The notes below the pieces were generated by a model. It made no database searches. It was not told where the DNA came from and worked only from the letters and a program-made list of their open reading frames with translations. A stretch of 64,000 nucleotides of DNA. It comes from Squalus acanthias. Taxonomy: Eukaryota. Of the stretch, positions 8,671 through 60,615 are shown in pieces; the first letter of the stretch is position 1; every line of letters starts with the position of its first letter. The stretch is taken from contig CM059432.1 in assembly GCA_030390025.1 (NCBI GenBank), forward strand, positions 94,118,001-94,182,000, in the 5' to 3' direction. The translations under genes were made by a program, and so were the position numbers.

Positions 8671-8896
8671 GATTGAGTAGATTGGGCCTATACTCTCTGG
8701 AGTTTAGAAGAATGAGGGGTGATCTCATTGAAACATAAAAGATTCTGAAGGTGATTGACAGGGTAGAGGCTGAGCGGTTGTTTTTGCTGGCTGGAGAGTC
8801 TAGAACTAGGAAGCATAGTCTTAGGATAAGGGAATAACAACAGAAAATGTTGGAAATACTCAGCAGGCCAGGCAGCATCCGTGGAGAGAGAAACAG

Positions 8897-8933
8897 AGTT
8901 AACGTTTCAGGTCTGGGACCCTTCATCAGAACT
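8897..8933 (-). ncRNA. Minimal hammerhead ribozyme motif, mirror copy in the left arm
   Basis: Reverse complement of 9808-9844. Confidence 0.75.
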
Positions 8934-9807
8934 GGAAAAAGCTGGAGATGCAACAGCTATTAAGCAGGTGCAGAGACAGGGTGGGGTTTAGGAGGGGAGG
9001 AAGGAATTGAAAGAACATACTGTGCTTATGTAAGTGGAAGGAAAGATAAAATGTTGCAAATGGGAATGGCAAAATCATACAGCATGAAAAATGGGGGCAG
9101 GGATTATTGTCTGAAATTGTTGAACTCGATGTTGAGTCCAGAAGGCTGTAAAGTGCCTAATAGAAAGATGAGGTGCTGTTCCTCGAGCTTACGTTGAGCT
9201 TCATTGGAACAATGTAATAGGCCGAGGACAGAGAGATCAGAGTGGGAGTATTAAAGTGACAGGCGACCGGAAGCTCAGGGTCACCCTTATGGACTGAACG
9301 GAGGTGTTCCGCAAAGTGGTCACCCAATCTGCGTTTGGTCTCCCCAATGTAGAGGAGACCGATGCTCACGATGCGGTCTCCTCTACACTGGGGAGACCAA
9401 ACGCAGATTGGGTGACCGCTTTGCGGAACACCTCCGTTCAGTTCGTAAGGGTGACCCTGAGCTTCCGGTCGTCTGTCACTTTAATACTCCCACTCTGATC
9501 TCTCTGTCCTCGGCCTATTACATTGTTCCAATGAAGCTCAACGTAAGCTCGAGGAACAGCACCTCATCTTTCTATTAGGCACTTTACAGCCTTCTGGACT
9601 CAACATCGAGTTCAACAATTTCAGACAATAATCCCTGCCCCCATTTTTCATGCTGTATGATTTTGCCATTCCCATTTGCAACATTTTATCTTTCCTGCCT
9701 CTTACATAAGCACAGTATGTTCTTTCAATTCCTTCCTCCCCTCCTAAACCCCCCCCCCCCCCTGTCTCTGCACCTGCTTAATATCTGTTACATCTCCAGC
9801 TTTTTCC

Positions 9808-9844
9808 AGTTCTGATGAAGGGTCCCAGACCTGAAACGTTAACT
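9808..9844 (+). ncRNA. Minimal type I hammerhead ribozyme motif (Penelope-associated)
   Basis: AGTT-CTGATGA-A-GGGTC-cca-GACCT-GAAACGTT-AACT: stem I AGUU/AACU, stem II GGGUC/GACCU, palindromic stem III. Confidence 0.75.
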
Positions 9845-10230
9845 CTGTTTCTCTCTCCACGGATGCTGCCTGGCCTGCTGAGTATTTCCAGCATTTTCTG
9901 TTGTTATTTCAGATTTCCAGCATCCGCAGTATTTTGCTATTGTCTCAGGATAAGGGGTTGGCCATTTAAGACTGAGATGAGGAGGAATTTCTTCACTTGG
10001 TTGTGAATCTTTGGAATTCTTTACCCCAAAGGGTTCTGGATGCTGAATAGTTGAGTATATTCAAGGTTGAGAGCAATAGATTTTTGGACTCCAGGAGAGT
10101 CCAGGGACATGGAGATCGGGCGGGGAAGTAGAGTTGAGGTCGATGATCAGCCGTGATCTTATTGAATGATGGAGCAGGCTCGAGGGGTCGTACGGCCTAC
10201 TCCTGCTCCTAATTCTTGTGTTCCTTTTTT

Positions 10231-14172: not shown

Positions 14173-15829
14173 ATATAGCTGAAATTCGGAACTCAATGGT
14201 GTGGGGTGGGGAAGTTCTGTTATTAGGGTCTCGCCATTCTGTTACTGCCAAGTTCACTTAATTTAGTGATTGAAGATGTAGGCTGTATTTTTCACCAGTT
14301 ATTGGAGTACATCTCCGATGGAGTGGGACTTTTGTCTGTGCCACAGATGCCCCTGAATGTGGTTGTATCTGGTCTCGGGGCCTTTTACGTAAGGGAGGCA
14401 GCCTTCCTGACCTCTGCTGGGGAGTTGGACCAGTATGGGGTGGAGAGTTGCTGCAGCAGACTCCAGCATAAGAATCCAATGACAAAGAAGTCGCCTGATT
14501 TAAAAAAAAAAAATAATAATAATGGCCTTTTTAGATTAAAAAAAAAGGTTTAATTAACGGTGCCTGTGCATGGCCACAATCTGAGAGCATTTGCACAAGC
14601 TCCTCTTCAGTTCTTGTCCTGAGACCTCCTTTGCTGATGTCTGAACACTGGAGGCAGGGGTCTAATGGGCAGCCCCTGCCTCCAGTGTTCCAAGAGTGCA
14701 TACGTGAAACACCGTGGAACTGGTACTCCCCTGCTTTGCAAATATTTACCACACATCTGTCCACATGGGTGGGTGCACTTCCCTGTTGGGGCCAGCCAAC
14801 ATAAAGCCCCAGGGAGGTAGGGACACAACGAAGAGCTTCCAACTTGCTTTCTGCCTCTGACCACTTCAGATCGATTGAAACATTGGGATGGGATGGGAGG
14901 TGGTGGAGGGTGGGAAAGGAATGCCCAGCCTGTAAACTCAACCACACGTAAATAACAATGCTTTATTTTAGAAGTAAATGTGAATTATTTGAGTAACTTC
15001 CACATGTACTAGTTGACTCGGTGACTATCTAAAATTGTGAAATATCTACCTCTTATCTTTTGCTCGAATGTAGTGGACTGAAGTTCACTTAACTGATGGC
15101 ATCTATTTGACAATGGAATGTAGTTAATCTTAAACTTCTTTTTCTCCAGTAAGACTAAGTATAAAGAGAGCTGTAATCATTGGACAGTTTCTAGGTATGA
15201 GATTCAGCTTTATACCTGAGGCACTGTTTCATGCCAAAGACAAACATTTAAAAACCGCAAGGTGTGTCCAGTGCGTGGGCAAGAGGTGAAGGCCTCTGTG
15301 CTGTAATCTGAGTTCTTTGTCCTGTTACCGCTGATACAGCAGCTGAGTAATGTTTTTCCATTATCAACAACCAAGTCATATCTCCACATAGCTAGAGAAG
15401 TGTACAGGTAGTGGGAAGCCAGTAAGCAGTGCTCTATACATTCTTGTGTAGCACCGAAGATCCCCAGCAAAATGGGTTTGTGAAAACCTTCCAGTGCTCA
15501 CAGTCATACTTGAAACAGAGGAAGATGGTTGGGGTTGCACAGTTAAACAGACATATCAGTGAAAAGTTTCTGTTGACTTGCATTCATACTTGTGCCTCTT
15601 GTGTTGCTCGTATGAGTATTGCATCCATTGCACCATCTGTGGATATGTACCCCATACCCAGGTCACCGCTGCTCTTAAACCAGTTGCTGGGAGACATCCT
15701 TACAATTTGGGTCAGCATGGTAGCATATCTGGTTGTAACCTATGATTTTCCCTTTCATGACTGTCTTGTCTAAATGTTAAATGCTTGAGTTGCTGTATAG
15801 TTTATACGTGAAGTGCAGAATGATGATGA

Positions 15830-16275
15830 AATGTGACTCCATGTTTGAACGCTTCCAGTCAGGTTTCCACCCCTGCTGCAGTATTGAAACGGCCCTGATC
15901 AAAGTCACAAATTACATCCTATGTTGTGGAGATGCCGGTGTTGGACTGGGGTGGACAAATGTGAGAAGTGATTTCAAATAAAGCTGTTGGACTATAACCT
16001 TGTGTTGTGCGACTTCTCACATACATCCTATGTGACTGTGACCGTGGTAAACTATCCCTTCACATCCTTCTCAACTTGTCTGCAGCCTATGATACGGTTG
16101 ACCACACCATCTTCCTCCAATGCCTCTCCTCCGTTGTCCAGCTGGGTGAGACAGCCCTTGCCTGATTCCATTCCTATCTATCCAGTTGTAGCCAGATAAT
16201 CTCCAGCAATGGTTTCTCTTCCTGCACTGTTACCTCTGGAGTCCCTCAAGGATCTATCCTTGGCCCCCTCCTAAT
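15830..16275 (+). mobile_element. L2 LINE RT fragment interrupted by a mini Penelope-type insertion
   Basis: FQSGFHP..S.ETALIKVTN.IL, LSAA.DTVDH and GVPQGSILGPLL motifs. Confidence 0.85.
15925..16021. mobile_element. 97-bp collapsed fold-back element, same family as 45308-45736
   Basis: Same tail (tgtggagatgcc.g.gttggactggggtggacaaa) and right-arm end as the 45-kb element; 12-bp TSD tacatcctatgt at 15913-15924 and 16022-16033. Confidence 0.85.
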
Positions 16276-33704: not shown

Positions 33705-33880
33705 GGAGCCTCGGCGCTGCCGCTGCTTTAATTCAGGTCCGCTCTCAGGCTGCTCTTTATCCTCTCGCCGCTGCTTTAATTCAGGTCCACTCTCGGGCCG
33801 CTCTTTATCCTCTCGCCGCTGCCGCTGTTTTAATTCAGGTCTGCTCTCGGGCTGCTCTTTATCCTCTCGCCGCTGCCGCA
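33705..33880 (-). repeat. Tandem repeat of 48-54 bp units (about 3.5 copies) at the CR1 5' end
   Basis: Repeated cgctgctttaattcaggtccgctctc.ggctgctctttatcctctcgc. Confidence 0.9.
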
Positions 33881-39525: not shown

Positions 39526-39797
39526 GTAATCGTTTTTGGTTTCCTGCACTAATTTACCTATATGTAATTTTACAGACTTCTGACACAAGACTTTCTTTGT
39601 TCGATACAAACCCTAACCCACAAGTTGTACTAGCTTGCTCAGCCCTCTGGTGAAATTAGATAGTAACCGGCCACTGGGTCTTGGCATTAGCTAATGTGAG
39701 TAAGCCAAATAATTAAAGAACGTCTAAGATTTGTGTGTCCTTTATAAAAAAAAAAAAAATTCAATTTAACATCTACTTCCTGCAATAGAGAAACCTG

Positions 39798-40058
39798 TGT
39801 GGTGGATCGCCACCTAAAACGGGCATAATCCACTCTTCCGTCTGTGGACAAATTTCCAGCCCCTCCCCTTTAAGGCACATTACCTTTAAGGCAGAAGGGG
39901 GCGGGGCCTCAGGTTTTACCCAGAGAATTCTGGGGGTTTTCCAGAGAATTCTGGGAGCAGCTCTCGCAGCCATTTTGATATAGCATGCAGTGAATAAAAG
40001 TTTCTTGTTTTCCACACATGGATTCAGCCTCCATTCGTGTTTCGCGGCAGCCTCAACA
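39798..40058 (+). repeat. Gypsy 5' LTR
   Basis: Direct repeat of 43725-43985 with 2 differences seen by eye; AATAAA at about 39993. Confidence 0.95.
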
Positions 40059-40059
40059 T

Positions 40060-40073
40060 TGGTGACCCCGACG
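40060..40073 (+). other. Primer binding site, tRNA-Trp
   Basis: TGGTGACCCCGACG is complementary to the vertebrate tRNA-Trp 3' end ...CGUCGGGGUCACCA. Confidence 0.85.
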
Positions 40074-40098
40074 CTCAGAACGTATTCCGAGCACTGCA

Positions 40099-40790
40099 AT
40101 GGCGGACACGAACGCAGTTTCCGTGAAACTGCCGGAGTTTTGGGAAAACCAGCCCGAAGCCTGGTTTCTCCAAGCTGAATCTCGCTTCCGGCTGCGAAAT
40201 ATCACCACAGATGGGACGAAGTACGACTATCTCGTCACATCACTCAGTAACTCCACAGTTTCCAAGGTTTGGACAACGCTGCAGAACCCACCAGAGGAAG
40301 GCAAGTACGTACATCTCAGAACAGCGCTCCTTAAAAAATTTACGGCCTCGGCATATCAGCGAAACTGCCACCTCCTCGACCTTCCAGGCCTCGGTGATGC
40401 CTCACCGTCAGACCTCCTCTCCCACATGCTCTCCCTCACCGACGAGAGCCCACCCGGATCCCTCTTCCGCACGCTGTTCATCCGCCAGCTACCTCTCAGC
40501 ATCCGCCCAGCGATCGTGGCGTCCGGCCTCACGAACCTGGAAGCCCTGGCCGATGAGGCCGACAAGCTACTGTCCGCTCACTCCAGCCGTGACGTCACTC
40601 CGGACCTGGCAGCCAATGCCTGGGCGCGCCCCTCACCATCCAGCACACGGCTACAAGGGCCTGTCACCAGGCCCACGGGGCCTTCACGCCCACTAACCCA
40701 GGCCACTGTTACTACCACACACGGTTCGGCGCCAGGGCACAACGGTGCACACCTCCCTGCTCTTTCAAGTCCGCCCCCGTTCCAGCCCCC
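40099..40790 (+). CDS. gag: Gypsy gag, frame-shifted before the CYYH..FG..A..C..PC zinc knuckle
   Basis: VKLPEFW...PEAWFLQAES.F N-terminal motif; the knuckle CYYHTRFGARAQRCTPPC at 40707 is in the pol frame. Confidence 0.85.
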
Positions 40791-40793
40791 GCG

Positions 40794-42640
40794 ATGGCCG
40801 TGGGCCACGCGGGCTCCCTGCTGTTCGTCACGGATGACAAAACCGGCCGCCGGTTCCTGTGCGACACTGGGGCTCAGCACAGCATCATCCCGGCCTCCGC
40901 CCTCGACATCCAAAAGGGCGAACGAGGACCGGTGCTGGCTGCTGCCAATGGCTCGGAAATCCGGACGTATGGCACCCGGACAGTCACCCTCGACCTCGCT
41001 GGTCACCGCTACCGATGGGAGTTCATCACTGCCAAGGTGCTCTCCCCCCTCATCGGCGCAGATTTCCTGTGCGCCCACGGCCTACTGGTAGACATCCCTC
41101 GTCACCGCCTCGTGGACATGAACACCATGTCCCCCATCCTGGGTGCCATGGCCCCCCGTCAACCCGCCGACATGGCGTCACAGTGCCACGCCCGGGTCAC
41201 GGATGACTACTCGGCACTCCTGGCCGAATTCCCGGCCCTTACCAATCCGACCTTCTCCGCGGAGGCCGCCAAACACGGGGTGGAACACTTCATCCCCACC
41301 ACAGGCCCCCCAGTGTACGCCCACGCCTGCAGGCTGGACCTGGCCAAACTGGAGATCGCGCGGACCGAGTTTGCCACCATGGAACAGCTCGGCATCATCC
41401 GCCGCTCCAACAGTCCCTGGGCCTCCTCACTCCACATCGCCCCCAAACCAGGCGGAGGTTGGCGCCCCTGCGGGGATTACCGCCGCCTCAATGACGCCAC
41501 CACCCCTGATCGGTACCCCGTGCCGCACATTCAGGACTTCTCGGCTAGACTGGCCGGCCGCTCAGTCTTTTCCAAGGTCGACCTGGTGCGCGGCTACCAC
41601 CAAGTCCCCGTCCACCCCGCGGACGTCCCCAAGACGGCCGTAATCACCCCCTTCGGCCTGTTCGAGTTCCTGCGGATGCCCTTCGGCCTCAAAAACGCAG
41701 CCCAGGCATTCCAACGGCTCATGGACTCGGTCCTTCAGGACCTGAAGTTCCTGTTCGTCTACCTGGACGACATCCTGGTAGCCAGTTCCTCCAAGCAGGA
41801 ACACCTCGAACACCTTCGCATCCTGTTCGGGCGCCTCAGTGACCACGGGCTCATCCTCAGCCCAGCCAAATGCCAGTTCGGCCTGGACAAGATCGACTTC
41901 CTCGGCCACCACATCACCCATTCTGGGGCCATTCCCCTGCCCACCAAGGTGCAGGCCGTCCAACAATTTCCCCGCTCCACCACCATCAAAGGCCTCCAGG
42001 AGTTCCTCGGGATGGTGAATTTCTATAACCGCTTCATCCCCAAAGCGGCATCCCTCCTGAGGCCCCTGTATGAAGCCCTCCGGGGCAGGAGCAGCAAGAT
42101 GGCGGTCGAATGGACGGCAGACGCGTCCGCCGCCTTCGATTCCACCAAGACAGCGCTCGCCAACGCCACCCTGCTCGCGCACCCACAGCCCAATGCCAGG
42201 GTAGCGCTCACCACGGACGCCTCCGACCACGCGGTCGGCGCCGTGTATGAGCAGTGGGTCGACGGCGCCTGGCAACCACTTGCCTTCTTCAGCCGCCAAC
42301 TACGCCCCCCGGAGGTCAAGTACAGCACCTTCGACCGCGAGCTCCTCGCGCTGTTCCTGGCGGTCCGCCATTTCCGGTTTTTGCTTGAGGGCCATCCCTT
42401 CACTGCGTTTGTCGACCACAAGCCCCTGACATTCGCAATGGCAAAGACAACCGACCCCTGGTCCGCCAGGCAGCAGCGCCAGCTTGCGGCAGTGTCCGAG
42501 TTCACCACGGACATCCAACACGTCTCCGGCCGAGACAATGTGGTAGCCGACTGCCTCTCCCGCCCCGCCATCCACGCCGCACACCTAGCAGTCGACTACG
42601 CTCAACTCGCAGCAGACCAGATCACCGACCCTGATCTGCT
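40794..42640 (+). CDS. pol: Gypsy pol: protease, reverse transcriptase, RNase H
   Basis: LCDTGA, DYRRLN, MPFGLKNA, YLDDIL, TDAS and YSTFDRELLA motifs. Confidence 0.95.
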
Positions 42641-42642
42641 CT

Positions 42643-43704
42643 CCGCACCTTCGCAAGGATGTGCGTACTTGGGCCAACTCCTGCCTAGCCTGCCAACGGG
42701 CCAAGGTACAGCAACACACAAAAGCACCCCTCGAGGAGTTTACCGTCCCCTCGCGGAGATTCGACCACATCCACGTGAACATCGTCGGGCCCCTGCTGCC
42801 GTCGCAAGGCCACACGCACTTGCTGACCATCGTTGACCGCACCACACGCTGGCCTGAGGCAATTCCACTGACCTCTACCACCACCGCCGACATCGCCCGA
42901 GCCTTCGTCAGCACCTGGGTCGCACGGTTCGGCGTCCCCTCCGACATGACGTCGGACAGAGGTCCGCAATTTACCTCTGAACTCTGGACAGCCGTCGCAC
43001 GCAATCTCGGGGTGACCATTCACCGCACCACAGCGTACCACCCCCAAGCCAACGGACTGTGTGAGCGGTTCCACAGATCCTTGAAGGCATCTCTTCGAGC
43101 CAGCCTCCAAGACGGCACCTGGACCGACCAACTTCCGTGGGTCCTCCTCGGCCTGCGCACCGCGGTTAAAGAAGACCTCCACGCATCGGCAGCAGAGCTC
43201 GTGTACGGTCAGCCGCTGCGCGTACCCGGCGAGTTCCTGCCCACCGCCACGACACCCTGGTCAGCCGACCAGCAACGCCACAACTTCGCCTCACCAGCGC
43301 TGCAGTTCGCCCCGGTGCCCATTGCCCGACACGGCGAATCCACCTCACACGTCCCACTAAGCCTGCACCAGGCACGGTTTGTTTTCGTCCGGCACGACGC
43401 CCACCGCGGACCCCTTCAACCCCCGTACGACGGGCCCTACAAGGTGCTGCAGGCTGGGGACAAATTTTTCACCCTGCAAGTGGGCGACAGGACCGAAAAA
43501 GTGTCGGTGGACCGACTCAAGCCAGCACACTCGGAGCCCGGGGAGCAGGTCCCTGTAGCTCGTCCACCTCCACGCGGCCGACCTGCCCTCAAGCCGGTTC
43601 ACCCGGCTGCTCCACGCCCGGCCGTTCCACGTCCACCGGCGTCCTACAAGAGCCGCTCCGGCCGGCCCATCAGACCGCCGCACCGTCTCATCCACACCTC
43701 CTGA
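42643..43704 (+). CDS. Gypsy integrase, N-terminally deleted and out of frame with RT/RH
   Basis: C..CQ, SDRGPQF, YHPQANGLCER and GPY motifs; the HH half of the HHCC finger is missing. Confidence 0.9.
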   Translation, partial: PHLRKDVRTWANSCLACQRAKVQQHTKAPLEEFTVPSRRFDHIHVNIVGPLLPSQGHTHLLTIVDRTTRWPEAIPLTSTTTADIARAFVSTWVARFGVPSDMTSDRGPQFTSELWTAVARNLGVTIHRTTAYHPQANGLCERFHRSLKASLRASLQDGTWTDQLPWVLLGLRTAVKEDLHASAAELVYGQPLRVPGEFLPTATTPWSADQQRHNFASPALQFAPVPIARHGESTSHVPLSLHQARFVFVRHDAHRGPLQPPYDGPYKVLQAGDKFFTLQVGDRTEKVSVDRLKPAHSEPGEQVPVARPPPRGRPALKPVHPAAPRPAVPRPPASYKSRSGRPIRPPHRLIHTS

Positions 43705-43724
43705 GCGGATTCTGGGGGGAGCTG

Positions 43725-43985
43725 TGTGGCGGATCGCCACCTAAAACGGGCATAATCCACTCTTCCGTCTGTGGACAAATTTCCAGCCCCTCCCCTTTAA
43801 GGCACATTACCTTTAAGGCAGAAGGGGGCGGGGCCTCAGGTTTTACCCAGAGAATTCTGGGGGTTTTCCAGAGAATTCTGGGAGCAGCTCTCGCAGCCAT
43901 TTTGATATAGCATGCAGTGAATAAAAGTTTCTTGTTTTCCACACATGGATTCAGCCTCCAGTCGTGTTTCGCGGCAGCCTCAACA
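43725..43985 (+). repeat. Gypsy 3' LTR
   Basis: Preceded by the polypurine tract ggggggag and followed by the CCTG TSD. Confidence 0.95.
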
Positions 43986-45397
43986 CCTGCTTTACTATCA
44001 AAAAAAACTCACTCACTCGTATGATAAATGTCCTTTATTTTGTAACTAATATTCTCATTCCACTCTGCACATAACCGTTCACGTGCAGTTAAAGAATGTG
44101 TGTGGGGTGAAGGGGAAGCTGCTTTCATGCAACATTTGGTGGTCTCTGTAGCATTAGACAATACCCTAGAAGCAAGTTGACCAACTACAGGCCAAAGATG
44201 CACTGATGAAACTTGTAGGTACTATTGGCAAAATGAAGACATTCATGCTATTTCACAACAAAAGCTAGATTGGACAGGATGGATGCAATGGAAGAGATTT
44301 TATTATAATTCCACCACTATACTTTTGGGGTCTCTGAATCAACATCAGTGTGACATTTTCCTTGAAGTAGATTTCTCCTGAAGCTGTGCTGATGCATTGT
44401 TTGATTTGAGATTATCTGCATTTAATCGATTGGAACCGGACAGAATCTTATTTTGCAATATAACAGTGCCATGATATTCTCAGAAGTGCAAAGATCTAGT
44501 TTTAGTGTCTCTGCCTTTTAACCCAGCAACTACAGACCAGTCAGTTTGACCTCGGTAGTGGGGAAACTTTTCGGAACAGTAATCAGGGACAAAATTAAGT
44601 TACTTGGACAAGTGTGGATTAATTAAGGAAAGCCAGCACGGATTTGTTGAAGGCAAATTGTGTTTAACTAACTTGATTGAGTTCTTTGACGAGGTAACAG
44701 AGAAGGTTGATGAGGGTAATGCAGTTGACGTAGTGTACATGGATTTCCAAAAGGCGTTCGACAAAGTGCCACATAATAGGCTTGCCAGCAAAGTTGAAGC
44801 CCATGGAATAAAAGGGACAGTGGCAGCATGGATACGAAATTGGCTAGGGAATAGGAAACAGAGAGTAGTGGTGAACGGTTTTTTGTACTGGAGGAAGGCA
44901 TACAGTGGTGTTCCCGAGGGGTCGGTTCGAGGACCGCTGCTTTTCTTGATATATATTAATGACTTGGACGTGGGTGTACAGGGCACAATTTCAAAATTTG
45001 CAGATGACACAAAACTTGGAAGTATAATGAACAGTGAGGAGGAGTGTGATGGACTTCAGGAAGACATAGACAGGCTGGTGAAATGGGCGGACACGTGGCA
45101 GATGAAATTTAATGCAGAAAAGTGTGAAGTGATGCATTTTGGTAGAAAGAATGAGAAGAGGACATATAAATTAAATGGTACAATCCTAAAGTGGGTGCAC
45201 GACAGAGAGACCTGGGGGTATGTGTGCACAAATAGTTGAAGGTGGCAGGGCAGGTTGAGAAAGCATTTAAAAAAGCTTACGGGATCCTGGACTTCATAAA
45301 TAGAGGTCATGATGTGGAGATGCCAGCGTTGGACTGGGGTGGACAAAAATGAGAAGTCGCACAACACCAGGTTATAGTCCAACAGATTTATTTAATT

Positions 45398-45436
45398 TTA
45401 CAAGCTTTCGGAGCGGTTCGCTCCTTCCTCAGGTAA
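45398..45436 (-). ncRNA. Minimal hammerhead ribozyme motif, mirror copy
   Basis: Reverse complement of 45650-45688. Confidence 0.78.
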
Positions 45437-45649
45437 GTTAGCAGTGAGAATCTCCCAGAATTCACAATTTAAACACAGACAAAATCTATTCAAATCTTTC
45501 CCTACATCAAAGACACACTAAGAGTACACACTGGGACACATCTCATTGTCTTGGCTGTACTCTTAGTGTGTCTTTGATGTAGGGAAAGATTTGAATAGAT
45601 TTTGTCTGTGTTTAAATTGTGAATTCTGGGAGATTCTCTCACTGCTAAC

Positions 45650-45688
45650 TTACCTGAGGAAGGAGCGAACCGCTCCGAAAGCTTGTAA
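45650..45688 (+). ncRNA. Minimal type I hammerhead ribozyme motif
   Basis: TTAC-CTGAGGA-A-GGAGCG-aac-CGCTCC-GAAAGCTT-GTAA: stem I UUAC/GUAA, perfect 6-bp stem II, palindromic stem III. Confidence 0.78.
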
Positions 45689-46619
45689 AATTAAATAAAT
45701 CTGTTGGACTATAACCTGGTGTTGTGCGACTTCTCATTCATAAATAGAGGTTTAGAGTACAAAAGTGTGGAAATTATGATGAACCTGTATAAAACACAGG
45801 TTCGGCCCCAACTGGAGTATTGTGTCCAATTCTGGGCACCACACTTTAGGAAGGATGTGAAGGCCTTGGAGAGGGTGCAGAAAAGATTTACGAGAACGAT
45901 TCCAAGAATGAGGGACTTCAGTTACGTTGATAGACTGGAGAAGCTGGGGTTGTTCTCCTTGGAGCAGAGAAGATTGAGAGGAGATTTGATAGAGGTGCTC
46001 AAAATCATGAGGGGTCTGGACAGAGTAGATAGAGAGAAACTGTTCCCATTGGCAGAAGGGTTGAGAACCAGAGGACACAGATGTAAGGTAATTGGCAAAA
46101 GAACCAAAGGCGACATGAGGAAAAACTTTTACGCAGCGAGTGGATAAGATATGGAATGCACTGCCTGAAAGGATGGTGGAGGCAGACTCAATCACGGCTT
46201 TCAAAATGAAGTTGGATAAGTATCTGAAGAAAAGAAATTTGCAGGGCGGGGGAGTGGGACTAGCTGAGGTGTTCTTGCAGAGAGCTGGTACGTACTCGAC
46301 TGGCCGAATGGCCGCCTTTCGTGCTGTAACCATTCTATGATTCTAACATTAAATTTTTACCTTGCTACACATCATCTGACTCAATTTAAAAGTTTAAACC
46401 TAATTATTATTTCCTGTGAAGTAGTTTTGAATACTTTTACAAATTGCAGCAAAACAAATTTGCAGTCCATTTTTTGAGAATTTTGACTTTTATGTTCTGT
46501 CATAGTTTATTTAAACACTACCATCTAGTGGTGATTCTGTAAACCACAATTAGGATATCTGTATTGGCCTTCCTGCTTCTAAATGCCCAGTCCTATACGT
46601 TTTTTGTAATTGAACCTCA

Positions 46620-47374: not shown

Positions 47375-50300
47375 GAAGGAGTGGACCTGAGCAGGAGCTG
47401 ACCGAGAGCGGAGCGGCACGAATAGTGCGGTGGAGCAGGCCCGAGACACGAGGTGGCAACAGCTGAACGAGAGCGGAGCTGGGAGCAACGCAACACAGGC
47501 AGAATTTGAAAGAGTGACGTCAGAGTAAAAAAACCTAAAGTGACGTCCGCACAAGGGAAGGAGCTGATTGGTCAGTAGCTGGTGAGTTTTTTTTTAAGTC
47601 TTAAGTTTATTTCTGTTAGTTAGTTAATAGTCTATTTAAATAGATGCAGGTACCTCAGTCCCGTGGAATGTACATCTTGTGCCATGTGGGAACGCCAGGA
47701 CGCTTCCCGTGTCCTGGACAACCACATGTGCAGGAAGTGTTGTCAGCTGGAGGAGCTCGAGCTCTGGGTTTCAGAGCTTGTGCAGTAGCTGGCATCACTG
47801 CGGTGCATTCGTGAGGCTGAGAGCTTCGTGGATAGCACGTTTCAGGAGGTGGTCACCCCGCAGCTTAAAGAGTGTGCAGGCAGAGAGGGAATGGGTGACT
47901 GCCAGACAGAAGAGGAGGACCAGGCAGGTAGTGCAGGAGTCCCCTGAGTGTATCTCGCTCTCTAACTGGTACTGAACACGAGTGAGGGCGATGGTTTCTC
48001 TCAGGAGTACAACCAGAGCCAAGTCCGCTGCACCACGGGTGGCTCAGCTGTACAGGCGGGGGAGGCGGAAGATTGGGAAAGCAACAGTGGTAGGGAATTC
48101 AATAGTTAAGGGAACAGACAAGTGTTTCTGCGGCCACAGACGTGATTCCAGGATGGTACGTTGCCTCCCTGGTGCCAGGGTCAAGGATGTCACTGAGCGG
48201 CTGCAGAACATTGAGGGGAGAGGGTGAACAGCCAGAGGTCGTGGTCCATATCACGACATAAGTAGAAAGAAGGATGAGATCCTGCAGGCATATTTTAGGG
48301 AGCTTGGAAAGAGATTAAAAAGCAGGACCTCAAAGGTAGTAATCTCTGGATTACTCCCGGTGCCACATGCTAGTGAGTATAGAAATAGGAGGATAGCGCA
48401 GATGAATGTGTGGCCGGTGAGATGGTGCAGGAGGGAGGGCTTTAGATTCCTGGGGCATTGGGACCGGTTCTGGGGAAGGTGAGACCTGTACAGGCCGGAC
48501 AGGTTGCACCTCAACGCCACTAGGACCAATATCCTCGCGGGGTTTTGCTTGTGCTGTTGGGGAGTGTTTAAACTAATTTGGTAGGGGGATGGGCACCAGG
48601 ATGTAGCATGAGAAAGGAGAAACATGGTGCACAAAAGAATGAGTAATACAAATAGCACTAGAGTAAGAGAGAGTACGGTATTAGTTGGGGTCAGACTAAG
48701 AGAAAATACAAAAAGGTTTAAGAGGTTTATAGTACATGCTGCAGGCACAAATAGCCTAATGGGAATATGATGTTGTGACGATAACAGAGACCTGGCTCAA
48801 AATAGGGCAGGATTGGATACTAAATATTCCTGGATATAAGGTGTTCAGGAAAGATGGGGAAGGAAAGAAAGGAAGGTGAGATGGCAGTATTGATTAAGGA
48901 GAATATTATAGTATATGGAGAGAGAGGATGTCCTGGAGGGGTCAAGGACAGAATCTATTTGGTTAGAGTTAAGAAACAATAGATGTGCCATTACACTACT
49001 AGGTGTATTCTATAGGCCACCTACTAGTGGGAAGGATATAGAGGAGCAAATTTGCAGGGAAATTAGAGACGTGCAAGAACTATGGAGTAGTGATAATGGG
49101 GACTTCAATGATCCTAAAATAGACTGGGATAGTAATAGTGTAAAGGACAGAGAGGAGGAAGAATTTCTGAAGTGTGTTCAGGAGAACTTTCTTGATCAGT
49201 ACATTTCCGGCCCAATGAGGAAGGAAGCATTGCTGGATCTGGTTCTGGGGAATGAGGTGGATCAAGTTTCAGTAGGGGAACATTTAGGGAACAGTGATCA
49301 TAGTATCATAAGGTTTAGGTTAGCTATGGAAAAGGACAAAGAGCAATCTAGAATCAAAATATTTAATTGGAGGAGGGCTAATTTCATGGGTCAAGAACGG
49401 CCCTGGCCCGGGTAAATTGGAATCAAAGATCAGCAGGCAAAACTGTAATTGAAGAATGGGCTGCCTTTAAAGAGGAGATGGCTCGGGTGCAGTTGAGGTG
49501 CATTCCCAAGAGGGGGAAAGGTAAGGCAATCAAAGCCAGAGCTCCCTGGATAACGAAAGAGATAGAGAGTAAGATGAAGCAGAAAAAAGAGGCGTATGAC
49601 AGATGTCGGGTTGAGAATACAAGTGAGAACCAGGCTGAATATAGAAAGTTCAGAGGGGAAGTGAAAAAGGAAATAAGAGGGTCGAATAGAGTGGCAGCTA
49701 ACAAAAAAGGGAATCAAAAGTCTTCTATAGGCATATAAATAGTAAATGGGTCTTAAGAGGAGGGGTGGGACCGATTAGGAACCAAAAAGGAGACCTACTC
49801 ATGGAGGCAGAGGGCATGGCTGAGGTACTAAATGAGTACTTTGCATCTGTCTTTACCAAGGAAGAAGATGCTGCCAAAGTCATAGTGAAAGATGAGGTAG
49901 TTGAGATATTGGATGGGATAAAAATTGATGGAGGAGGTACTAGAAAGGCTGGTTGTACTTAAAGTAGATAAGTCACCAGGACCGGATGGGATGCATCCTA
50001 GGATGCTGAGGGAAGTTCAGGTGGAAATTGCGGAGGTACTGGCCATAATCTTTCAATTCTCCTTGGATATGGGGGTGGTGCCAGAGGACTGGCGAATTGC
50101 AAATGTTACACCATGGATAAACCCAGCAACTACAGGCCAGTCAGCTGAACCTCGCTGGTGGGGAAGCTGTTAGAAACAATCTGGGACAAAATTAACAGTC
50201 ACTTGGACAAGTGTGGATTAATTAAGGAAAGCCAGCACGGATTTGTTAAAGGCAAATCGTGTTTAACTAACTTGATCGAATTTTTTGATGAGGTAACAGA

Positions 50301-51512
50301 GAGGGTTGATGAGGACAATGTGGTTGACGTAGTGTATATGGATTTCCAAAAGGCGTTTGATGACGTGCCACATAATCGGCTTGCCAGCAAAGTTGAAGCC
50401 CATGGAATAAAAGGGACAGTGGCAGCATGGATACGAAATTGGCGAAGTGACAGGGAACAGATGGTAGTGGTGAACGGTTTTTCGAACTGGAGGAAGGTAC
50501 ACAGTGGTGTTCCCCAGGGGTCGGTACTAGGACCACTGCTTTTCTTGATATATATTAATGGTTTGGACTTAGGTATACAGGGCAGTATTTCAAAATTTGC
50601 AGGATGACACAAAACTTGGAAGTATCGTGAACAGTGAGGAGGATAGTGATAGACTTCAAGAGGACACAGACAGGCTGGTGGAATGGGCGGACACGTGGCA
50701 GAAGAAGTTAAATGCAGAAAAGTGCAAAGTGATACATTTTGGTAGGAAGAATAAGGAGAGGCAATATAAACTAAATGGTACAATTCTAAAGGGGGTGCAT
50801 GAACAGAGATACCAGGGGGTATATGTGCACAAATCATTGAATGTGGCAGGGCAGGTTGAGAAAGCAGTTAAAAAAGCATACAGGATCCTGGGCTTCATAA
50901 ACAGAAGCATAAAGTACAAAAGCAAGGAAGTTATGATGAACCTTCATAAAACACTGGTTTGGCCACAACTGGAGTATTGTGTCCAATTCTGGGCACCACA
51001 CTTTAGGAAGGATGTGAAGGCTTTAGAGAGGATGCAGAAAAGATTTACAAGAATGGTTCCAGGGATGAGGGACTTCGGTTATGTGGATAGACTGGAGAAG
51101 CTGGGGTTGTTCTCCTTGGAGCAGAGAAGGTTGAAAGGAGATTTGATAGAGGTGTTCAAAATCATGAGGGGTCGAGACAGAGTACATAGAGAGAAACTGT
51201 TCCCATTGGCGGAAGGGTCGAGAACCAGAGGACACAGATTTAAGGTGATTGGCAGAAGATCCAAAGGCGACATGAGGAAAAACTTTTTACACAGCGAGTG
51301 GTTAGGATCTGGAATGCACTGCCTGCGAGGGTGGTGGAGGCAGACTCAATCGTGGCTTTCAAAAGGGAATTGGATAAGTACCTGAAGGAAAACATTTTGC
51401 AAGGCTACTGGGAAAGGGCGAGGGATTGGGACTAGCTGAAGTGCGCTTGCAGAGAGCCGGCATAGGCTTGATGGGCCAAATGGCCTCCTACTGTGCTGTA
51501 ATGATTCTATGA
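47375..51512 (+). mobile_element. Near full-length degenerate CR1 (5' UTR, ORF1 zinc finger/coiled coil/esterase, ORF2, tail)
   Basis: CTSC...CRKC, VVGNSIV and CLPGARV in ORF1; APE and RT motifs; gattctatg tail. Confidence 0.92.
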
Positions 51513-52764: not shown

Positions 52765-55700
52765 TTGGCACCTTAGCGCCGGCAGATAAGGCCGGTTTCT
52801 GAGGAAAAAATGGTGGCTGCTTCGCTTCTGCCCACTTCCAATGGGTCCCGCGGCGGCCGCCATTTTGGGTAGGTCGTCCGAGCAGCGGTTGCCTGCGCTC
52901 ACTGGAGAAATCGTAATAAGGCAGATCGTGATGTCAATCAGAGTACAACACTGATTTAACGCATGAAATGCTATTTTTTACGTCACCGCTCCATTCAACA
53001 CCCTCTCCAAATCACGAACAGCTGAACATGTGTTCAGCAGCAGGAAGAACTCCCACTCTCCCCCCCCCCCCCCCCCCCACCCCAGCGCTGTTTAAAGGGA
53101 TCAGCAACAACTTGCAGCTGACTTGCTTTTTGATTTCTACTGGCTCTGTGTAAGTTTGTGCAACTGTTTGGAGCTTTCTACAGTTATTTAAAGTTGCTGA
53201 GGTGGCAGGGAGTGTTGCTGCAAGTGGAGAACGACTTGCTTCTCATTTAAAGGGTTCTGCTCAGAACACTTGCTCCCAGTCATGGGGGCTCTACTTGCAG
53301 TCCCCCTTGCGCTGGAGTACGACAGGGAGATGGAGCAGAGGCAGCAAAGAAGAGGACAAGCTGCTCGCAGAAGGAGGAGGGGCAGGATGGTCTCCTGGTA
53401 GGAGGCCTTACCCACCTCTGGTCTTCATGGAGCACTTCTCCGACTTGCACGTAAGCCAGAAGCAGCGTATTAGGAGGCTCCGCTTCACCAAGGAGGTGGT
53501 CAAAGAACTCTGCCACCTCTTGGAACAAGACCTGCAGCATCAGAACAGGGTGTCGATGGCGCTGCCAGTAGTCCTCAAGCTGACCATGGCCCACAATTTG
53601 CCACCGGATCCTTCCAGTCTGGAGCAGGAGACCGAGCTAATATCTCCCAGTTCACTGTCCATCGCTGCATCCCGCAGGTCACAGAGACTCTGTATTCCAG
53701 GAGAAGGGACTTCATTGTCCTCTCTGAACACAGAGAAGCAGGAGGAGTGCGCATGTGGCTTTGCCAGGATATTGGGCTTCCCCATGGTGCAGGGTGCCAT
53801 CGACTGCACACACATGGTTTTGTGGGCACCACATATCAATCCTGAGTTGTATCGCAGCCGCAAAGGCTACCACTCACTTAATGTGCAGTTGGTGTGTGAC
53901 CATGCCCAGCACATAATGATGAATGCCCGATATCCTGGCAGCAGTCATGATGTGCCAGCAATCTTCCAGCCACCACGTCAAACCAGAAGGTGGCTGCTCA
54001 GAGACTAGGGCTATCCGCTGTACACCTGTCTGATGACTTCCCCTCCACAACCCCACCACTCGTGGCCAGCACTCATAATGAGAGCCATGCTGCCACGAGG
54101 AACCTCATCAAGCAGACCATCGGGGTTCTGAAGCAATGGTTCCGCTACCTTGAGCGCTTGGGAGAAGCCCTCCAGTACTCGCTGGGGCGGGTGTCTCATT
54201 TCATGGTGGTTTGCTGCATCCACCACAACTTGGCCATCATGAGGGAGCAGCCGTTGCCACCACTGGTTCCGGGACCACCTCAAGAAGAGGAGAAAGGGAG
54301 CAGGCAGGCAGCAGATCTCCGTTCCGGACTGGCTGTCCGTGAGCGCCTCATCAGAATCCGGTTCCAATGAATGAAACCCCAGATCCCTGCTGCTCACCAC
54401 TCCCCCACCTTACAATCCCTGTGTCATTGAACATCACTCTGTCCTCTTGGGCACAAAGCTGAAATGAGAGCCACTACAAAACAAACATTCCAAATATAAT
54501 TTATAAACTTCTCAATTCCAATACGACACAACGTCAACTAATCACTCTTGTGCATTCCCTTAGTGTCTGACTTTCATATTCCTTTGCCTACTTTAGTGCT
54601 CTTACGAAGTGCTACCCCAGTGGCTGCAGCATGGCTGATGGAAAGGCTGCTGATTTTTCGTGGGGGACTGCAGATGGTCTTGTTGGATGACCTCAAGCAG
54701 CTCTGGGCTTAGAAGGCCCAACTGTAGCCTGCACCACCTTGGCATGGGCGGCAGCAATCTGGGCTGGCTGGATAACCAGCAGCAACAAGGGCAGTGGTGG
54801 GAGTAGGAATGCTGTCCTCTTGAGAGAGGACAGCAGGTTCTAGCTCCACTGAGCCACTGCCACTTCCCTGTGGCAGCGCCTCAACATTCCTCGCCATCTG
54901 TTGGGAGCACAGATTGCTGGACTGATGAGACCCTGCAAGCCTCTTTCCGTACTCGTAAACCCATCCGCGATGGCAGCAGTCTGATCTTGCGTGGCAGCAA
55001 GCTGAGACTGCAGGAGAACAGCCTGAGCTTCCACGGCAGCACTAAGACGTTGGGTTGCTGTTGCTTCTGCTTGTGCTGCAATGGAAGCTGCGAGATTGCC
55101 CATCACACCCAGCATCATGTTTGGGTCCACAAGTGTCCTAATGGAGTTGGCCATCATTTCCATCCTGGAAATCATGGGCTCCAAGCTCTGCGCAAAACCC
55201 CGTGCAATGTTGGAGCCGGACTCCTCCATGATCTTTGACACTGACAAGAGACTCTCTGGCAGGGTTGCCATTGCACCCAGCATTTCTGTGCGCATGCCCA
55301 CCACCCTCCTTCTGAAGGCCGGTCCATCGAGGACGTCATCTGAGTCCTGTGCAGCAGAACTTGTGCGCAAACTCACCCTCCGGGGAGCTGGCACCCGAGC
55401 TACCCTTTCCCCCTGGCCTGGCTGCAGCCCACTCGTGCCCGGTGACTCACCACGTGCAGATCCCGCCTCTACACTACCCTCTAAAGTTCGCGCAGTGTCA
55501 TTTTCTGAGCTGGTAGCTGGGAGTGTCAGATCGAGTGACTGCCTCTTCTCCTTCAATCTCCTCCTCCATAACATCGGGGGCAGGCTGGGCTGGTGGGACT
55601 TCTTGGGTATCTGAAAGGAGAAAGGTACAAGGGTGGGTTGTGGTTGTGGGGGGGGAAACAAGATGTACATGCTTACACCATCAGCAGCTTGTAAGTGAGA

Positions 55701-55862
55701 AGAGATTGTGGGATGAGGGGGAAATGAGATGTGAGAAGAAGGATTTGATATGAGCATACCATCATCATCAGCAATGCTTTCAACTTTGCCGATTGCCACG
55801 GTCTCAGTGACTGCCCCTCCAGTTATCTCCAGCACTGTGTCCTCCAGCTCTGTGATTCTCTG
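52765..55862. mobile_element. Second PIF/Harbinger transposon: DDE transposase on + (about 53282-54370) and convergent partner gene on - (about 54540-55860)
   Basis: GFPMVQGAIDCTH, RKGYHSLNVQLVCD, YPGSSHD and QTIGVLKQWFR motifs; frameshifted. Confidence 0.85.
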
Positions 55863-56877
55863 GATCATAGAATCATAGAAGTTTACTGCACAGAAGGAGG
55901 CCATTTGGCCCATCGTGTCTATGCCGGCTGAAAAAGAGCTATCCAGCCTAATCCCACTTTCCAGCTCTTGTAGTTTCGTAGCTGTGCAGGCCACGGCATT
56001 TCAAGTGCATATCCAAGTGAATCAGACAGCCCTCTTTAGAGTGATGATATCACGTTAATCAAGATGTGTATTTCTTTGATACAGAGAAATGCAGCCTTCT
56101 GAATGCAAGGGGGTCACTTTAAACTTGTCACAACACTACCAAGCTACAAATTCCCATAAATATGGAAAAAAAATTAAATAATTGATCTCTGATTTTTCAT
56201 AGTCCCCACTTGCACTTTCTTAAACCAATCCAGATAGGATGTGGCAAGTGAGCGTATTGTCAGAATGAGGTGATGAATGAAGGACATTCATTTTTTCTTG
56301 AAGCAAGATGGAATTTGTAATTTAATGTTTAAGAACAAGTGTTCAAGCTGTGGACCAAGGCCTACATCTGCACCTTTGACTGAGGAAAAGTGTGCAGGGA
56401 GACATGAACGCCAGCCTGAAGATAAAAATATTTAACTTAAATGCAATTTATTAGTTGTATTTTATGCAAGTTTTTAATGCTGGTGAAACTAGTGTTACTT
56501 ATACATTCGGAAAGAACAATGCTTTGCTGACTGGGAAGTACAAGTCACAAGATTTTCTGGTAATAAAGATTGTTCATTTTAACATGAGGGCTCCCTATTT
56601 AAATATCCCTAAAATCCTTCTCTTTGCAAAATATGAACTGAATGCATAACTTGATTTTTCACTTAAATATCCTTCTCCAAACCAGTTAAAGTGGAATGCT
56701 GCCATATTAATCTCTCGCTCCCAACAGATTACTGTTTCAGTCTAACGTGTTTACTGATTTTGTTGGTAGAAGCAGAAAGAAGCTATTTATTTGTGCAGTG
56801 CCTTCTGGGTAGGATGATGGCTGTTTGCACTCCATAGATGTACCATAAAAATTTCCACAGATTTGCTTCCCTATTAC

Positions 56878-59426: not shown

Positions 59427-59640
59427 GAGGCAGAGAATAAAGAGAGGGGGACCCGAGGACAGCGTGGACCTGGAAGGAGTAGGCAAGACCGGAGGCAGAG
59501 AATAAAGAGAGCAGGGCCCGAGGACCTGGAAGGAGTAGGCAAGACCGGAGGCAGAGAATAAAGAGAGCAGGGCCCGAGGACCTGGAAGGAGTAGGCAAGA
59601 CCGGAGGCAGAGAATAAAGAGAGCAGGGCCCGAGGACGGA
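59427..59640 (+). repeat. 56-bp tandem repeat, about 3.6 copies
   Basis: Unit gaggcagagaataaagagagcagggcccgaggacctggaaggagtaggcaagaccg at 59492, 59548 and 59604, with a variant copy at 59427. Confidence 0.92.
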
Positions 59641-59861: not shown

Positions 59862-60615
59862 GGGGGAAAAGTTCAGTTGTTTTGCGCCTCCCGTTAGAGC
59901 CCGAAGAGGGTGCTAACGGGACGCAAAGCAACTAGCGCCCGGGTGCAGAACCGCCAACGCCTCCCGAGAAATTCAGCGGGATATTGGCGGCGGCAGTAAC
60001 CGTTAGCGCCCTGTGGCGCTGCGTCGCCGGCCATGACGTCATGGCCGTGCGCAGCGCCCCAGCCGCAATCTTCGGTAGCGTCCCCTGACTTACCGCTGGA
60101 CGCCATGTCCAACAGGATCAGGGGGGCGTACCTGCGGCCGGGGCGGCGCTAATTAAAGGTGAGGTGCCGGGCGGCCATTTTCATTGCTGGCCGTCTGCCA
60201 GCACCTGCCCCCGTTGCCGTCCCCAGCCCCCTCCCACCCCCCTGCAGAGTGCCGGCTGCGCTCCGTGAGCCCAGCACTTATCTTGAGTGCCGGGCTCTTT
60301 TGCCGGCACTCCGATCCCTGGTGGCCCAGCTGGGCCCCGGGTCGTGCTGCACAAGGCCCCTCCCCTTTAAGAAGGGGAGGAAGGCCTGCAGTACCGCGGC
60401 GCGACGTGCCGCAGAGCGTGACGCTGCAGTACGTAACGCCGCGATGTTCCCTCGCAGTGCCCCAAGAGGGAGGCGGGGCGCTTCCAGTAGTGCCCCACTT
60501 CCCTCTTGGGGCGCTACCGATGAATTTCGGCCACGGGTGCTAATTTTTTCGCTGCTAAAAGTAGCGCCCCGGCAAAGTTAGCGCCCCAAAGTGGGTGCGA
60601 CTCAATTTTCCCCCC
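59862..60615. mobile_element. GC/CpG-rich MITE (Harbinger-type ends)
   Basis: Ends GGGGGAAAAGTT and AATTTTCCCCCC with subterminal tagcgccc repeats; flanked by CR1 5' UTR sequence. Confidence 0.65.

What the first reader, a model, noticed from the sequence alone, without database searches (positions are those of the whole stretch)
45293..45751. Second, sequence-unrelated and non-coding fold-back element with the same architecture
Seen: about 180-bp arms, near identical apart from a 2-nt indel, with a 27-nt loop, a roughly 41-nt one-sided tail, a 15-bp TSD and a hammerhead in each arm. It has no coding sequence and no obvious similarity to the 8.8-kb element outside the ribozyme core. Inference: two families producing tail+arm+loop+arm+TSD suggests a general insertion mechanism. 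It could alternatively be a non-autonomous, ribozyme-bearing palindromic unit that mimics a MITE but is retrotransposed.
Basis: partly seen in the sequence, partly recalled or inferred. Interest (0 to 1): 0.75.

Follow-up and report, generated by a model that had tools for sequence, protein, structure and literature searches.

The report
Truncated head-to-head Penelope retroelement insertion
This hairpin-shaped piece of DNA is real but mostly ordinary: two short tail-end copies of a Penelope-type jumping gene joined head to head in one insertion, a layout already described for these elements, though its joint hints at how such insertions are built.

Summary
In detail: 15-bp TSD, 40-nt one-sided tail, 181-bp matched arms with one 2-nt indel, 27-nt loop and a minimal type I hammerhead motif per arm, inserted in a CR1 ORF2. 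The insert is not a replicating palindromic unit. A missed copy of the same family at 15913-16033 has 10-bp arms, a 42-nt loop and a 12-bp TSD. Public contigs show thousands of fragments, two 3' end classes (tail, no tail), other arm lengths, and that the loop is upstream family sequence of the tail-less copy. This is the published 'inverted 5'-truncated copy plus tail' layout of Penelope-like elements; this scan noted it before in two other shark-type genomes. No RT+GIY-YIG ORF could be linked to this end (no genome held), so membership rests on the non-coding hallmarks. Two inferences add something: loop polarity argues against one cDNA folding back on itself and for two primings joined by microhomology; and 2 of 9 mapped 5' ends lie at the predicted hammerhead cleavage site (post hoc, weak).

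The parts
45293..45307 (+). Left target-site duplication (15 bp), in CR1 ORF2
45308..45347 (-). One-sided 40-nt 'tail': 3' extension of the left copy; outer of the family's two 3' end classes
   Evidence: loose ends with mixed flanks at 45308/45309
45348..45528 (-). Left arm: 5'-truncated 3' end (pLTR) of the element, sense on the minus strand; lacks 2 nt (GA) that the right arm and many family contigs have
   Evidence: table 4 (GA put in behind 45445 in 12/9/3/5 contigs of the four runs)
45398..45436 (-). Minimal type I hammerhead motif, left arm; predicted cleavage between 45402 and 45401
   Evidence: predicted; no activity test
45529..45555 (+). 27-nt 'loop': the extra 5' part of the right (tail-less) copy, i.e. 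upstream family sequence
   Evidence: table 7: loose ends behind 45528 (1 contig) and 45513 (4 + 2 contigs) run into the reverse complement of the loop
45556..45738 (+). Right arm: second 5'-truncated 3' end, no tail; its last 2 nt are shared with the TSD
   Evidence: loose ends at 45340-45350
45650..45688 (+). Minimal type I hammerhead motif, right arm: stem I UUAC/GUAA, core CUGAGGA, stem II GGAGCG/CGCUCC, GAAA, palindromic stem III AGCU; predicted cleavage 45684|45685
45737..45751 (+). Right target-site duplication (15 bp)
44583..46270 (+). Host: decayed CR1-type LINE ORF2 (RT domain upstream of the insert); 87-89% identical to an uninterrupted paralog at about 50200-51440
   Evidence: (RVT_1 E 6.9e-26); the CR1 label is recalled from the sequence type
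15913..16033 (.). Short copy of the same family with the same layout: 12-bp TSD, about 35-nt tail, 10-11-bp arms, about 42-nt loop of sense 3' sequence starting at the predicted hammerhead cleavage site
   Evidence: family variant loose ends at 45393
8823..9956 (.). The 8.8-kb comparator, a different family: 529-bp arms (11 mismatches, one 6-nt indel), 12-nt loop in frame with a GIY-YIG fragment, tail on the right, TSD 10 bp exact or 15 bp with one mismatch, same hammerhead topology

Best explanation
A dead-on-arrival insertion of an abundant Penelope-like element (PLE) family in a cartilaginous-fish-type genome. It is made of two 5'-truncated copies of the element's 3' end (pLTR with minimal hammerhead), joined head to head in one event. 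Shown: the anatomy, the TSD in an otherwise continuous CR1, two 3' end classes in the family, variable arm and loop lengths, and the loop's polarity. Inferred mechanism: the PLE endonuclease nicks both target strands about 15 nt apart. Each 3'-OH primes reverse transcription on the same source RNA, one at the outer start site (with tail) and one at the inner start site (without). Both cDNAs stop early, their 3' ends anneal through 1-3 nt of microhomology or RT jumps from one to the other, and fill-in yields the palindrome. The overhang of the longer cDNA becomes the loop.
For: Layout matches published PLE insertions: inverted 5'-truncated copy plus a 30-40-bp tail at one end (PMC8557442). Pen2a_Av has a 181-bp inverted pLTR, a 31-bp tail and a 9-bp TSD (PMC3846280). 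The anole PLE protein nicks and extends both strands, starts RT at two adjacent sites that delimit the tail, and is modelled as a dimer (PMC11167929). Its main start lies 111-118 nt into an ORF that begins at hammerhead stem II; here the tail end is 117 nt from stem II, and 127 nt in the 8.8-kb element; 11516, 9834, 1791 and 1289 contigs laid in 4 of 4 runs. Loose ends with unrelated flanks (agreement 0.37-0.52) cluster at 45308/9 (42, 13 and 10 contigs) and at 45336-45350 (5, 27, 45, 54). Five contigs join left-copy pieces ending at 45322, 45324, 45371, 45393 and 45401 to loop sequence, so other arm lengths exist. The 15.9-kb copy has its own TSD, arm and loop length. Each insert's two arms share variants with each other rather than with the other insert, pointing to one source template per event. 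Junction microhomology: GT at 15.9 kb, and CG at 8.8 kb inferred from R before CxxC in 16 of 21 homologs. Hammerhead matches the PLE type, with short palindromic stem III (PMC6765202). Among 16 substitution rows, the only core position hit is N7; the two stem II substitutions keep a G-U pair, and one contig shows a C-G to U-A change in stem II. The 8.8-kb comparator carries the C-terminal GIY-YIG of RT+GIY-YIG proteins from skates and rays.
Against: No ORF is linked to this particular pLTR: no genome is held, and five pattern scans gave 0 hits while one gave 3 hits that match only 21 nt. Rfam found no hammerhead. The five joints rest on one contig each, with 22-26 letters on the short side where given, at 85% likeness, which the tool flags as unreliable; 354 loose ends and 24651 pieces were not shown. 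The microhomology at this element's own junction is unknown because the sequence upstream of the loop was not recovered. Two independent cDNAs need not end close together, yet 3 of 3 inserts here are near-symmetric (loops 12, 27, 42 nt); detection bias or coupled synthesis would have to explain that. Published A. vaga TSDs are 8-10 bp, shorter than the 12-15 here. PMC3846280 reads head-to-head junctions as self-priming on an antisense template.
Confidence: 0.86

Rival explanations
1. Same PLE origin, but the palindrome forms by self-priming: one nucleic acid strand folds back and is copied on itself, and the endonuclease then resolves the hairpin asymmetrically to leave the tail.
For: [quoted passage not shown] It explains identical arms and near symmetry. 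It fits the 8.8-kb element, where the loop belongs to the tail-bearing copy with a CG overlap. The 27-nt loop can itself form a weak hairpin with three G-U pairs.
Against: At 45.3 kb and 15.9 kb the loop is sense sequence of the tail-less copy. A tail-less cDNA folding back cannot template the tail, and a tail-bearing cDNA folding back would leave a loop of the opposite polarity. An antisense-RNA version with a later jump is not excluded.
Confidence: 0.2
2. A non-autonomous, ribozyme-bearing palindromic unit (MITE-mimic or retrozyme-like) that is copied as a whole by a PLE in trans.
For: The insert is non-coding, very young (0 mismatches in 181 bp) and belongs to a high-copy family. Non-autonomous PLE derivatives and PLE-mobilised retrozymes are described. 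Without the genome, a non-autonomous short source for the pLTR cannot be excluded.
Against: The second copy has different arms, loop and TSD. Contigs run from the arm into the opposite-polarity loop sequence and show other junctions; none of the 32 pieces shown spans this arm-loop junction. In a read-through transcript the whole insert folds into one 181-bp duplex and the pairing probability of hammerhead stem II is 0.0, against 0.87-0.995 for a single arm. No tandem array lies here.
Confidence: 0.05
3. A DNA-transposon foldback element or MITE with long terminal inverted repeats.
For: Long inverted repeats, a TSD and no coding capacity.
Against: The inverted repeat is not terminal on the left (40-nt tail outside it); TSD length differs between copies (15 vs 12 bp); arm length varies from 10 to 181 bp; two 3' end classes and a hammerhead motif are present.
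Confidence: 0.02

Closest known systems
Complex insertions of canonical EN+ Penelope-like elements (inverted 5'-truncated copy plus 30-40-bp tail; Craig et al. 2021, PMC8557442; Arkhipova et al. 2013, PMC3846280)
   Same: Head-to-head inverted 3' ends, one-sided tail of about 40 nt, single TSD around the unit, hammerhead in the pLTR, strong 5' truncation.
   Different: Both copies are truncated to about 200 nt, so the unit is a near-perfect non-coding palindrome; TSD 12-15 bp against 8-10 bp in the A. vaga examples; no ORF linked here.
Poseidon_Ac of the green anole (Frangieh et al. 2024, PMC11167929)
   Same: Two adjacent 3' end classes delimiting the tail; similar distance from hammerhead stem II to the outer end (117 nt here, 111-118 nt there); minimal hammerhead.
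   Different: [quoted passage not shown] There no RNA reads ended at the cleavage site, whereas 2 of 9 genomic 5' ends here lie at it.
Minimal type I hammerhead ribozymes of PLEs (reviews PMC6155905, PMC6765202, PMC7761336)
   Same: 4-bp stem I, 6-bp stem II, palindromic 4-nt stem III, no peripheral loops.
   Different: The two motifs are on opposite strands rather than in tandem, so they cannot dimerise in cis; in a read-through RNA the sense motif is buried in a duplex.
Metazoan non-LTR retrozymes (PMC7761336)
   Same: Non-coding, a few hundred nt, type I hammerhead, possibly moved by PLE proteins.
   Different: Retrozymes are head-to-tail tandem monomers that yield circular RNAs; this is a head-to-head pair with a PLE tail and per-insertion junctions.

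Membership tests
EN+ Penelope-like element insertion | Single ORF with PLE RT and C-terminal GIY-YIG endonuclease belonging to the same family as this 3' end | not testable with these tools
   No genome held; pattern scans of viral, metagenome and prokaryote collections gave no real hit; the contig pieces shown are mostly short. The neighbouring 8.8-kb family does carry the GIY-YIG end.
EN+ Penelope-like element insertion | Minimal type I hammerhead with short palindromic stem III in the pLTR | tested here: met
   Descriptor hits 4 of 4 in the two palindromes, 0 in 100 simulations; core unvaried except N7 among the listed variants; no Rfam hit; activity not tested.
EN+ Penelope-like element insertion | Inverted 5'-truncated copy joined head to head | tested here: met
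EN+ Penelope-like element insertion | Optional 30-40-bp tail at one end; two 3' end classes across the family | tested here: met
   40-nt tail; loose-end clusters at 45308/9 and 45336-45350
EN+ Penelope-like element insertion | One short TSD of variable length around the unit, no poly(A) end | tested here: met
   15 bp and 12 bp for the two family copies; no A-run at either end
EN+ Penelope-like element insertion | Preference for AT-rich targets | tested here: inconclusive
   TSDs are 11/15 and 8/12 A+T (read), but two sites are too few
MITE / foldback DNA transposon | Inverted repeats flush with both termini | tested here: not met
   40-nt tail lies outside the left arm
MITE / foldback DNA transposon | Fixed TSD length and uniform unit among copies | tested here: not met
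   15 vs 12 bp; arms 181 vs 10-11 bp; loops 27 vs about 42 nt
Metazoan non-LTR retrozyme | Head-to-tail tandem monomers of about 150-300 nt | tested here: not met
   No tandem array at the locus among 7 rows; arrangement is inverted
Metazoan non-LTR retrozyme | Expressed as small circular RNA | not testable with these tools
   Only contigs were available; RNA status of runs X7 and X10 is a guess

The most novel reading that the evidence does not exclude
These mini-palindromes are a genomic record of the PLE reaction. Both target nicks prime separate cDNAs, one at each of the two RT start sites, and they are joined 3' to 3' by microhomology. In some events the template's 5' end was made by hammerhead self-cleavage in the germ line: the sense copy at 15.9 kb starts at the first base after the predicted cut (within a 2-nt overlap), and one contig joint ends at the same position. 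That would give the minimal PLE hammerhead a visible in vivo footprint, which the anole study did not find, and make it countable in shark genomes.
Probability: 0.22. Interest if true: 0.6.

Novelty: new member of a known kind. Interest (0 to 1): 0.22.

Why it matters
As a locus it is an ordinary dead retroelement fragment inside another dead retroelement. It matters for annotation, since such inserts look like MITEs or microRNA hairpins (Rfam's best local hit was a chance MIR815 match, E 0.072). It also matters as material: the family has thousands of fragments with junctions that can be read. [quoted passage not shown] Loop polarity, junction microhomology and the share of 5' ends at the cleavage site are three genome-wide counts that bear directly on both questions.

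Tried and rejected
Whole-genome search: no genome is held, so copies could not be counted or extended. Pattern scans: 0 hits in viral contigs, 0 in genome contigs, 0 and then 3 in metagenome contigs; the 3 loci match only 21 nt of the tail and were dropped as chance. Rfam: 6 weak microRNA matches, none reaching a gathering score, no hammerhead. The bare hammerhead core count is at chance level and was replaced by a full descriptor. Free folds of the hammerhead region are not unusually stable (z -0.45 to -0.86; -2.46 only for the tight 56-nt piece). A window scan for TSD + tail + arm gave 6 hits: the 3 real inserts, 2 internal by-products of the palindromes and 1 unrelated hairpin at 13000, against 8 hits in 30 simulations. 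Pfam on the 8.8-kb fragments: GIY-YIG at E 0.023, below the cut-off, for 1 of 2 pieces, so homolog search was needed. The fall in contig depth near the cleavage site was not used: depth in contigs is no measure of ends, and this copy differs from a common family variant at 45393-45399. Three joints from the flank/TSD into the arm (45302-45305 to 45345-45361) could be separate insertions at the same CR1 site, but have 21-22 letters a side and were not trusted. Look-ups of earlier scan notes by sequence and by junction words returned nothing. A paper search for head-to-head template switching in Penelope returned 0 papers.

Full report
1. Observation. A 15-bp direct repeat lies at 45293-45307 and 45737-45751. 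Between them are a 40-nt tail (45308-45347), a left arm (45348-45528), a 27-nt loop (45529-45555) and a right arm (45556-45738). The arms match at 181 of 181 aligned bases with one 2-nt indel. The right arm's last two bases are shared with the TSD. The host is a decayed LINE ORF2 (RVT_1 E 6.9e-26; the CR1 label is from recall of the sequence type). It is 87-89% identical to a paralog near 50.2-51.4 kb that has the target once and no insert; 3 of 3 paralog hits over the site are uninterrupted. The insert has no reading frame of note and no blastn match to the 8.8-kb palindrome.

2. Hammerhead. Rfam did not find it (6 weak microRNA matches only), and the bare core is at chance level in the window (8 against 7.3). 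A full minimal type I descriptor gives four hits, one per arm of this and of the 8.8-kb element, and none in 100 first-order Markov simulations. The motif is stem I UUAC/GUAA, core CUGAGGA, stem II GGAGCG/CGCUCC, GAAA and a palindromic stem III AGCU, with predicted cleavage at 45684|45685 and 45402|45401 (core numbering from established knowledge of the ribozyme). Reviews describe this form for PLEs and say it probably cleaves as a dimer (PMC6765202, passages; PMC6155905, passages; PMC7761336, passages). Among family contigs, 16 substitution rows are listed; the only core position is N7, two stem II changes keep a G-U pair, indels fall in or beside loop II, and one contig shows a two-sided change in stem II. 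The laying favours similar contigs, so this conservation is an upper view. The two motifs face apart on opposite strands. In a read-through RNA the insert forms one long duplex (-346 kcal/mol) and stem II pairing falls to 0.0, against 0.87-0.995 in a single arm.

3. The family. No genome is held, so I used public runs. Twenty of 24 listed runs hold the stretch or part of it, from 9 studies and at least four organism codes. One arm with tail and loop was laid on 4 of them at 85% likeness: 11516, 9834, 1791 and 1289 contigs (not copy numbers). Loose ends with unrelated flanks cluster at the tail end (45308/9: 42, 13, 10 contigs) and at the arm end (45336-45350: 5, 27, 45, 54 contigs), which are the two 3' end classes known as tail and no tail. 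Beyond the left arm's inner end, contigs continue into the reverse complement of the loop (1 contig behind 45528, 4 + 2 behind 45513), so the loop is upstream family sequence belonging to the right, tail-less copy. Four of the 10 joints in table 5, and one more in table 5c, link left-copy pieces ending at 45322, 45324, 45371, 45393 or 45401 to loop sequence, i.e. other insertions with other arm lengths. Each rests on one contig with a short side, and 354 loose ends and 24651 pieces were not shown. Each window insert's two arms share variants with each other and not with the other insert. Six pattern scans of viral, metagenome and prokaryote collections found no real copy, as expected for an animal repeat.

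4. The comparator. The 8.8-kb element has 529-bp arms with 11 mismatches and a 6-nt indel, a 12-nt loop, a right-hand tail and a TSD of 10 bp exact or 15 bp with one mismatch. Its loop and right arm read as the start of a GIY-YIG domain. The search gave 21 homologs among 31 candidates, the named ones from skates and rays, several with an RT-like region upstream of the C-terminal GIY-YIG. This places the window in a cartilaginous-fish-type genome (inference) and shows that the architecture arises from a coding PLE. R precedes the CxxC in 16 of 21 homologs, so the left arm's last CG overlaps the right copy's upstream codon: a 2-nt microhomology (inferred).

5. Mechanism. Published PLE insertions often have an inverted 5'-truncated copy and a 30-40-bp tail at one end (PMC8557442, passages). 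Pen2a_Av has a 181-bp inverted pLTR, a 31-bp tail and a 9-bp TSD (PMC3846280, passages and Discussion). The purified anole PLE protein nicks and extends both target strands and starts RT at two sites that delimit the tail, 111-118 nt into an ORF that begins at hammerhead stem II (PMC11167929, parts 1-2 of 4). Here the tail ends 117 nt from stem II. Read strand by strand, the top strand is antisense tail + antisense arm + sense loop + sense arm. The bottom strand is antisense arm + antisense loop + sense arm + sense tail. If the tail-less cDNA folded back it could not supply the tail; if the tail-bearing cDNA folded back the loop would have the other polarity. The simplest fit is two primings, one per nick and one per RT start site, joined at their 3' ends or by an RT jump. 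The same holds at 15.9 kb. At 8.8 kb the loop belongs to the tail-bearing copy and either route fits. This step is inference. The published self-priming reading on an antisense template is not excluded, and the near symmetry of 3 of 3 inserts is not explained by independent truncation.

6. A lead on the ribozyme. A common family variant just after the hammerhead (loose ends behind 45393 in 44, 38, 12 and 6 contigs) matches the 15.9-kb copy, whose sense copy then starts at the first base after the predicted cut, within a 2-nt GT overlap with the other copy. One contig joint also ends at 45401, the same position. That is 2 of 9 family 5' ends: four from the window and five from joints; the five sense starts in the joints were left out because the laid stretch confines them to 45529-45537. 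The chance of two or more in a 3-nt window is 0.006 for ends spread over 220 nt and 0.07 for ends spread over 60 nt. The test was chosen after seeing the data, ends are 3'-biased, and one of the two is a single short contig. The anole study found no RNA reads ending at the cut and no need for cleavage in vitro. It is a lead, not a result.

7. Comparison and novelty. It works like, and by four of four testable non-coding hallmarks is, a truncated EN+ PLE insertion; target preference is inconclusive and the defining ORF could not be tested. It fails the MITE tests (terminal repeats, fixed TSD) and the retrozyme test (tandem monomers). Six paper searches found the architecture in print but no description of this shark family or of the loop-polarity argument; the library lacks most subscription papers, and the primary hammerhead papers (Cervera 2014, Lunse 2017) were seen only in reference lists. 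Earlier notes of this scan report the same pattern in two other shark-type genomes and reach the same class; they are unchecked notes and not counted as support.

8. Verdict. Real feature, correctly described, ordinary class: a new member of a known kind, interest 0.22. The remaining value lies in using such junctions, genome-wide, to test two-nick priming and hammerhead-defined ends.

Noticed in passing
window 15913-16033: Short copy of the same family with the same layout, 12-bp TSD; its sense copy starts at the predicted hammerhead cleavage site.
   Followed up: yes
window 8818-8832 and 9942-9956: The 8.8-kb element's TSD extends from 10 to 15 bp with one mismatch, and paralogous sites carry the right-hand version, so its tail is nearer 33 nt than 38.
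   Followed up: partly
window 45308-45311: The tail ends in an ATG on the element's sense strand; it could be the start codon of the next unit's ORF in a tandem. Not testable without a full-length copy.
   Followed up: no
window 39795-43985: Young LTR retrotransposon-like element: 264-nt repeats 99% identical, gag-, RT/RNase H- and integrase-like frames (by eye), apparent 4-bp TSD. Described only.
   Followed up: no
window 53154-56000: Frames resembling a Harbinger-type transposase and a partner protein on opposite strands (by eye, family name recalled).
   Followed up: no
window 45280-45361 (joints): Three contigs join the CR1 flank or TSD region directly to the arm without tail (one at depth 811); possibly other insertions at the same CR1 site, but only 21-22 letters a side.
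   Followed up: no
window 12987-13079, 14638-14695, 60011-60062, 60456-60515: Four short imperfect hairpins with no hammerhead motif or tail; two gave chance microRNA matches in Rfam.
   Followed up: partly
protein P0003: A skate gene model fuses a LINE RT piece to a PLE GIY-YIG C-terminus, probably another truncated PLE inserted in a LINE and annotated as a gene.
   Followed up: no
window 59466-59637 and 33710-33879: Tandem arrays: 56-nt unit, 3.1 perfect copies; 48-54-nt unit, about 3.3 copies.
   Followed up: no
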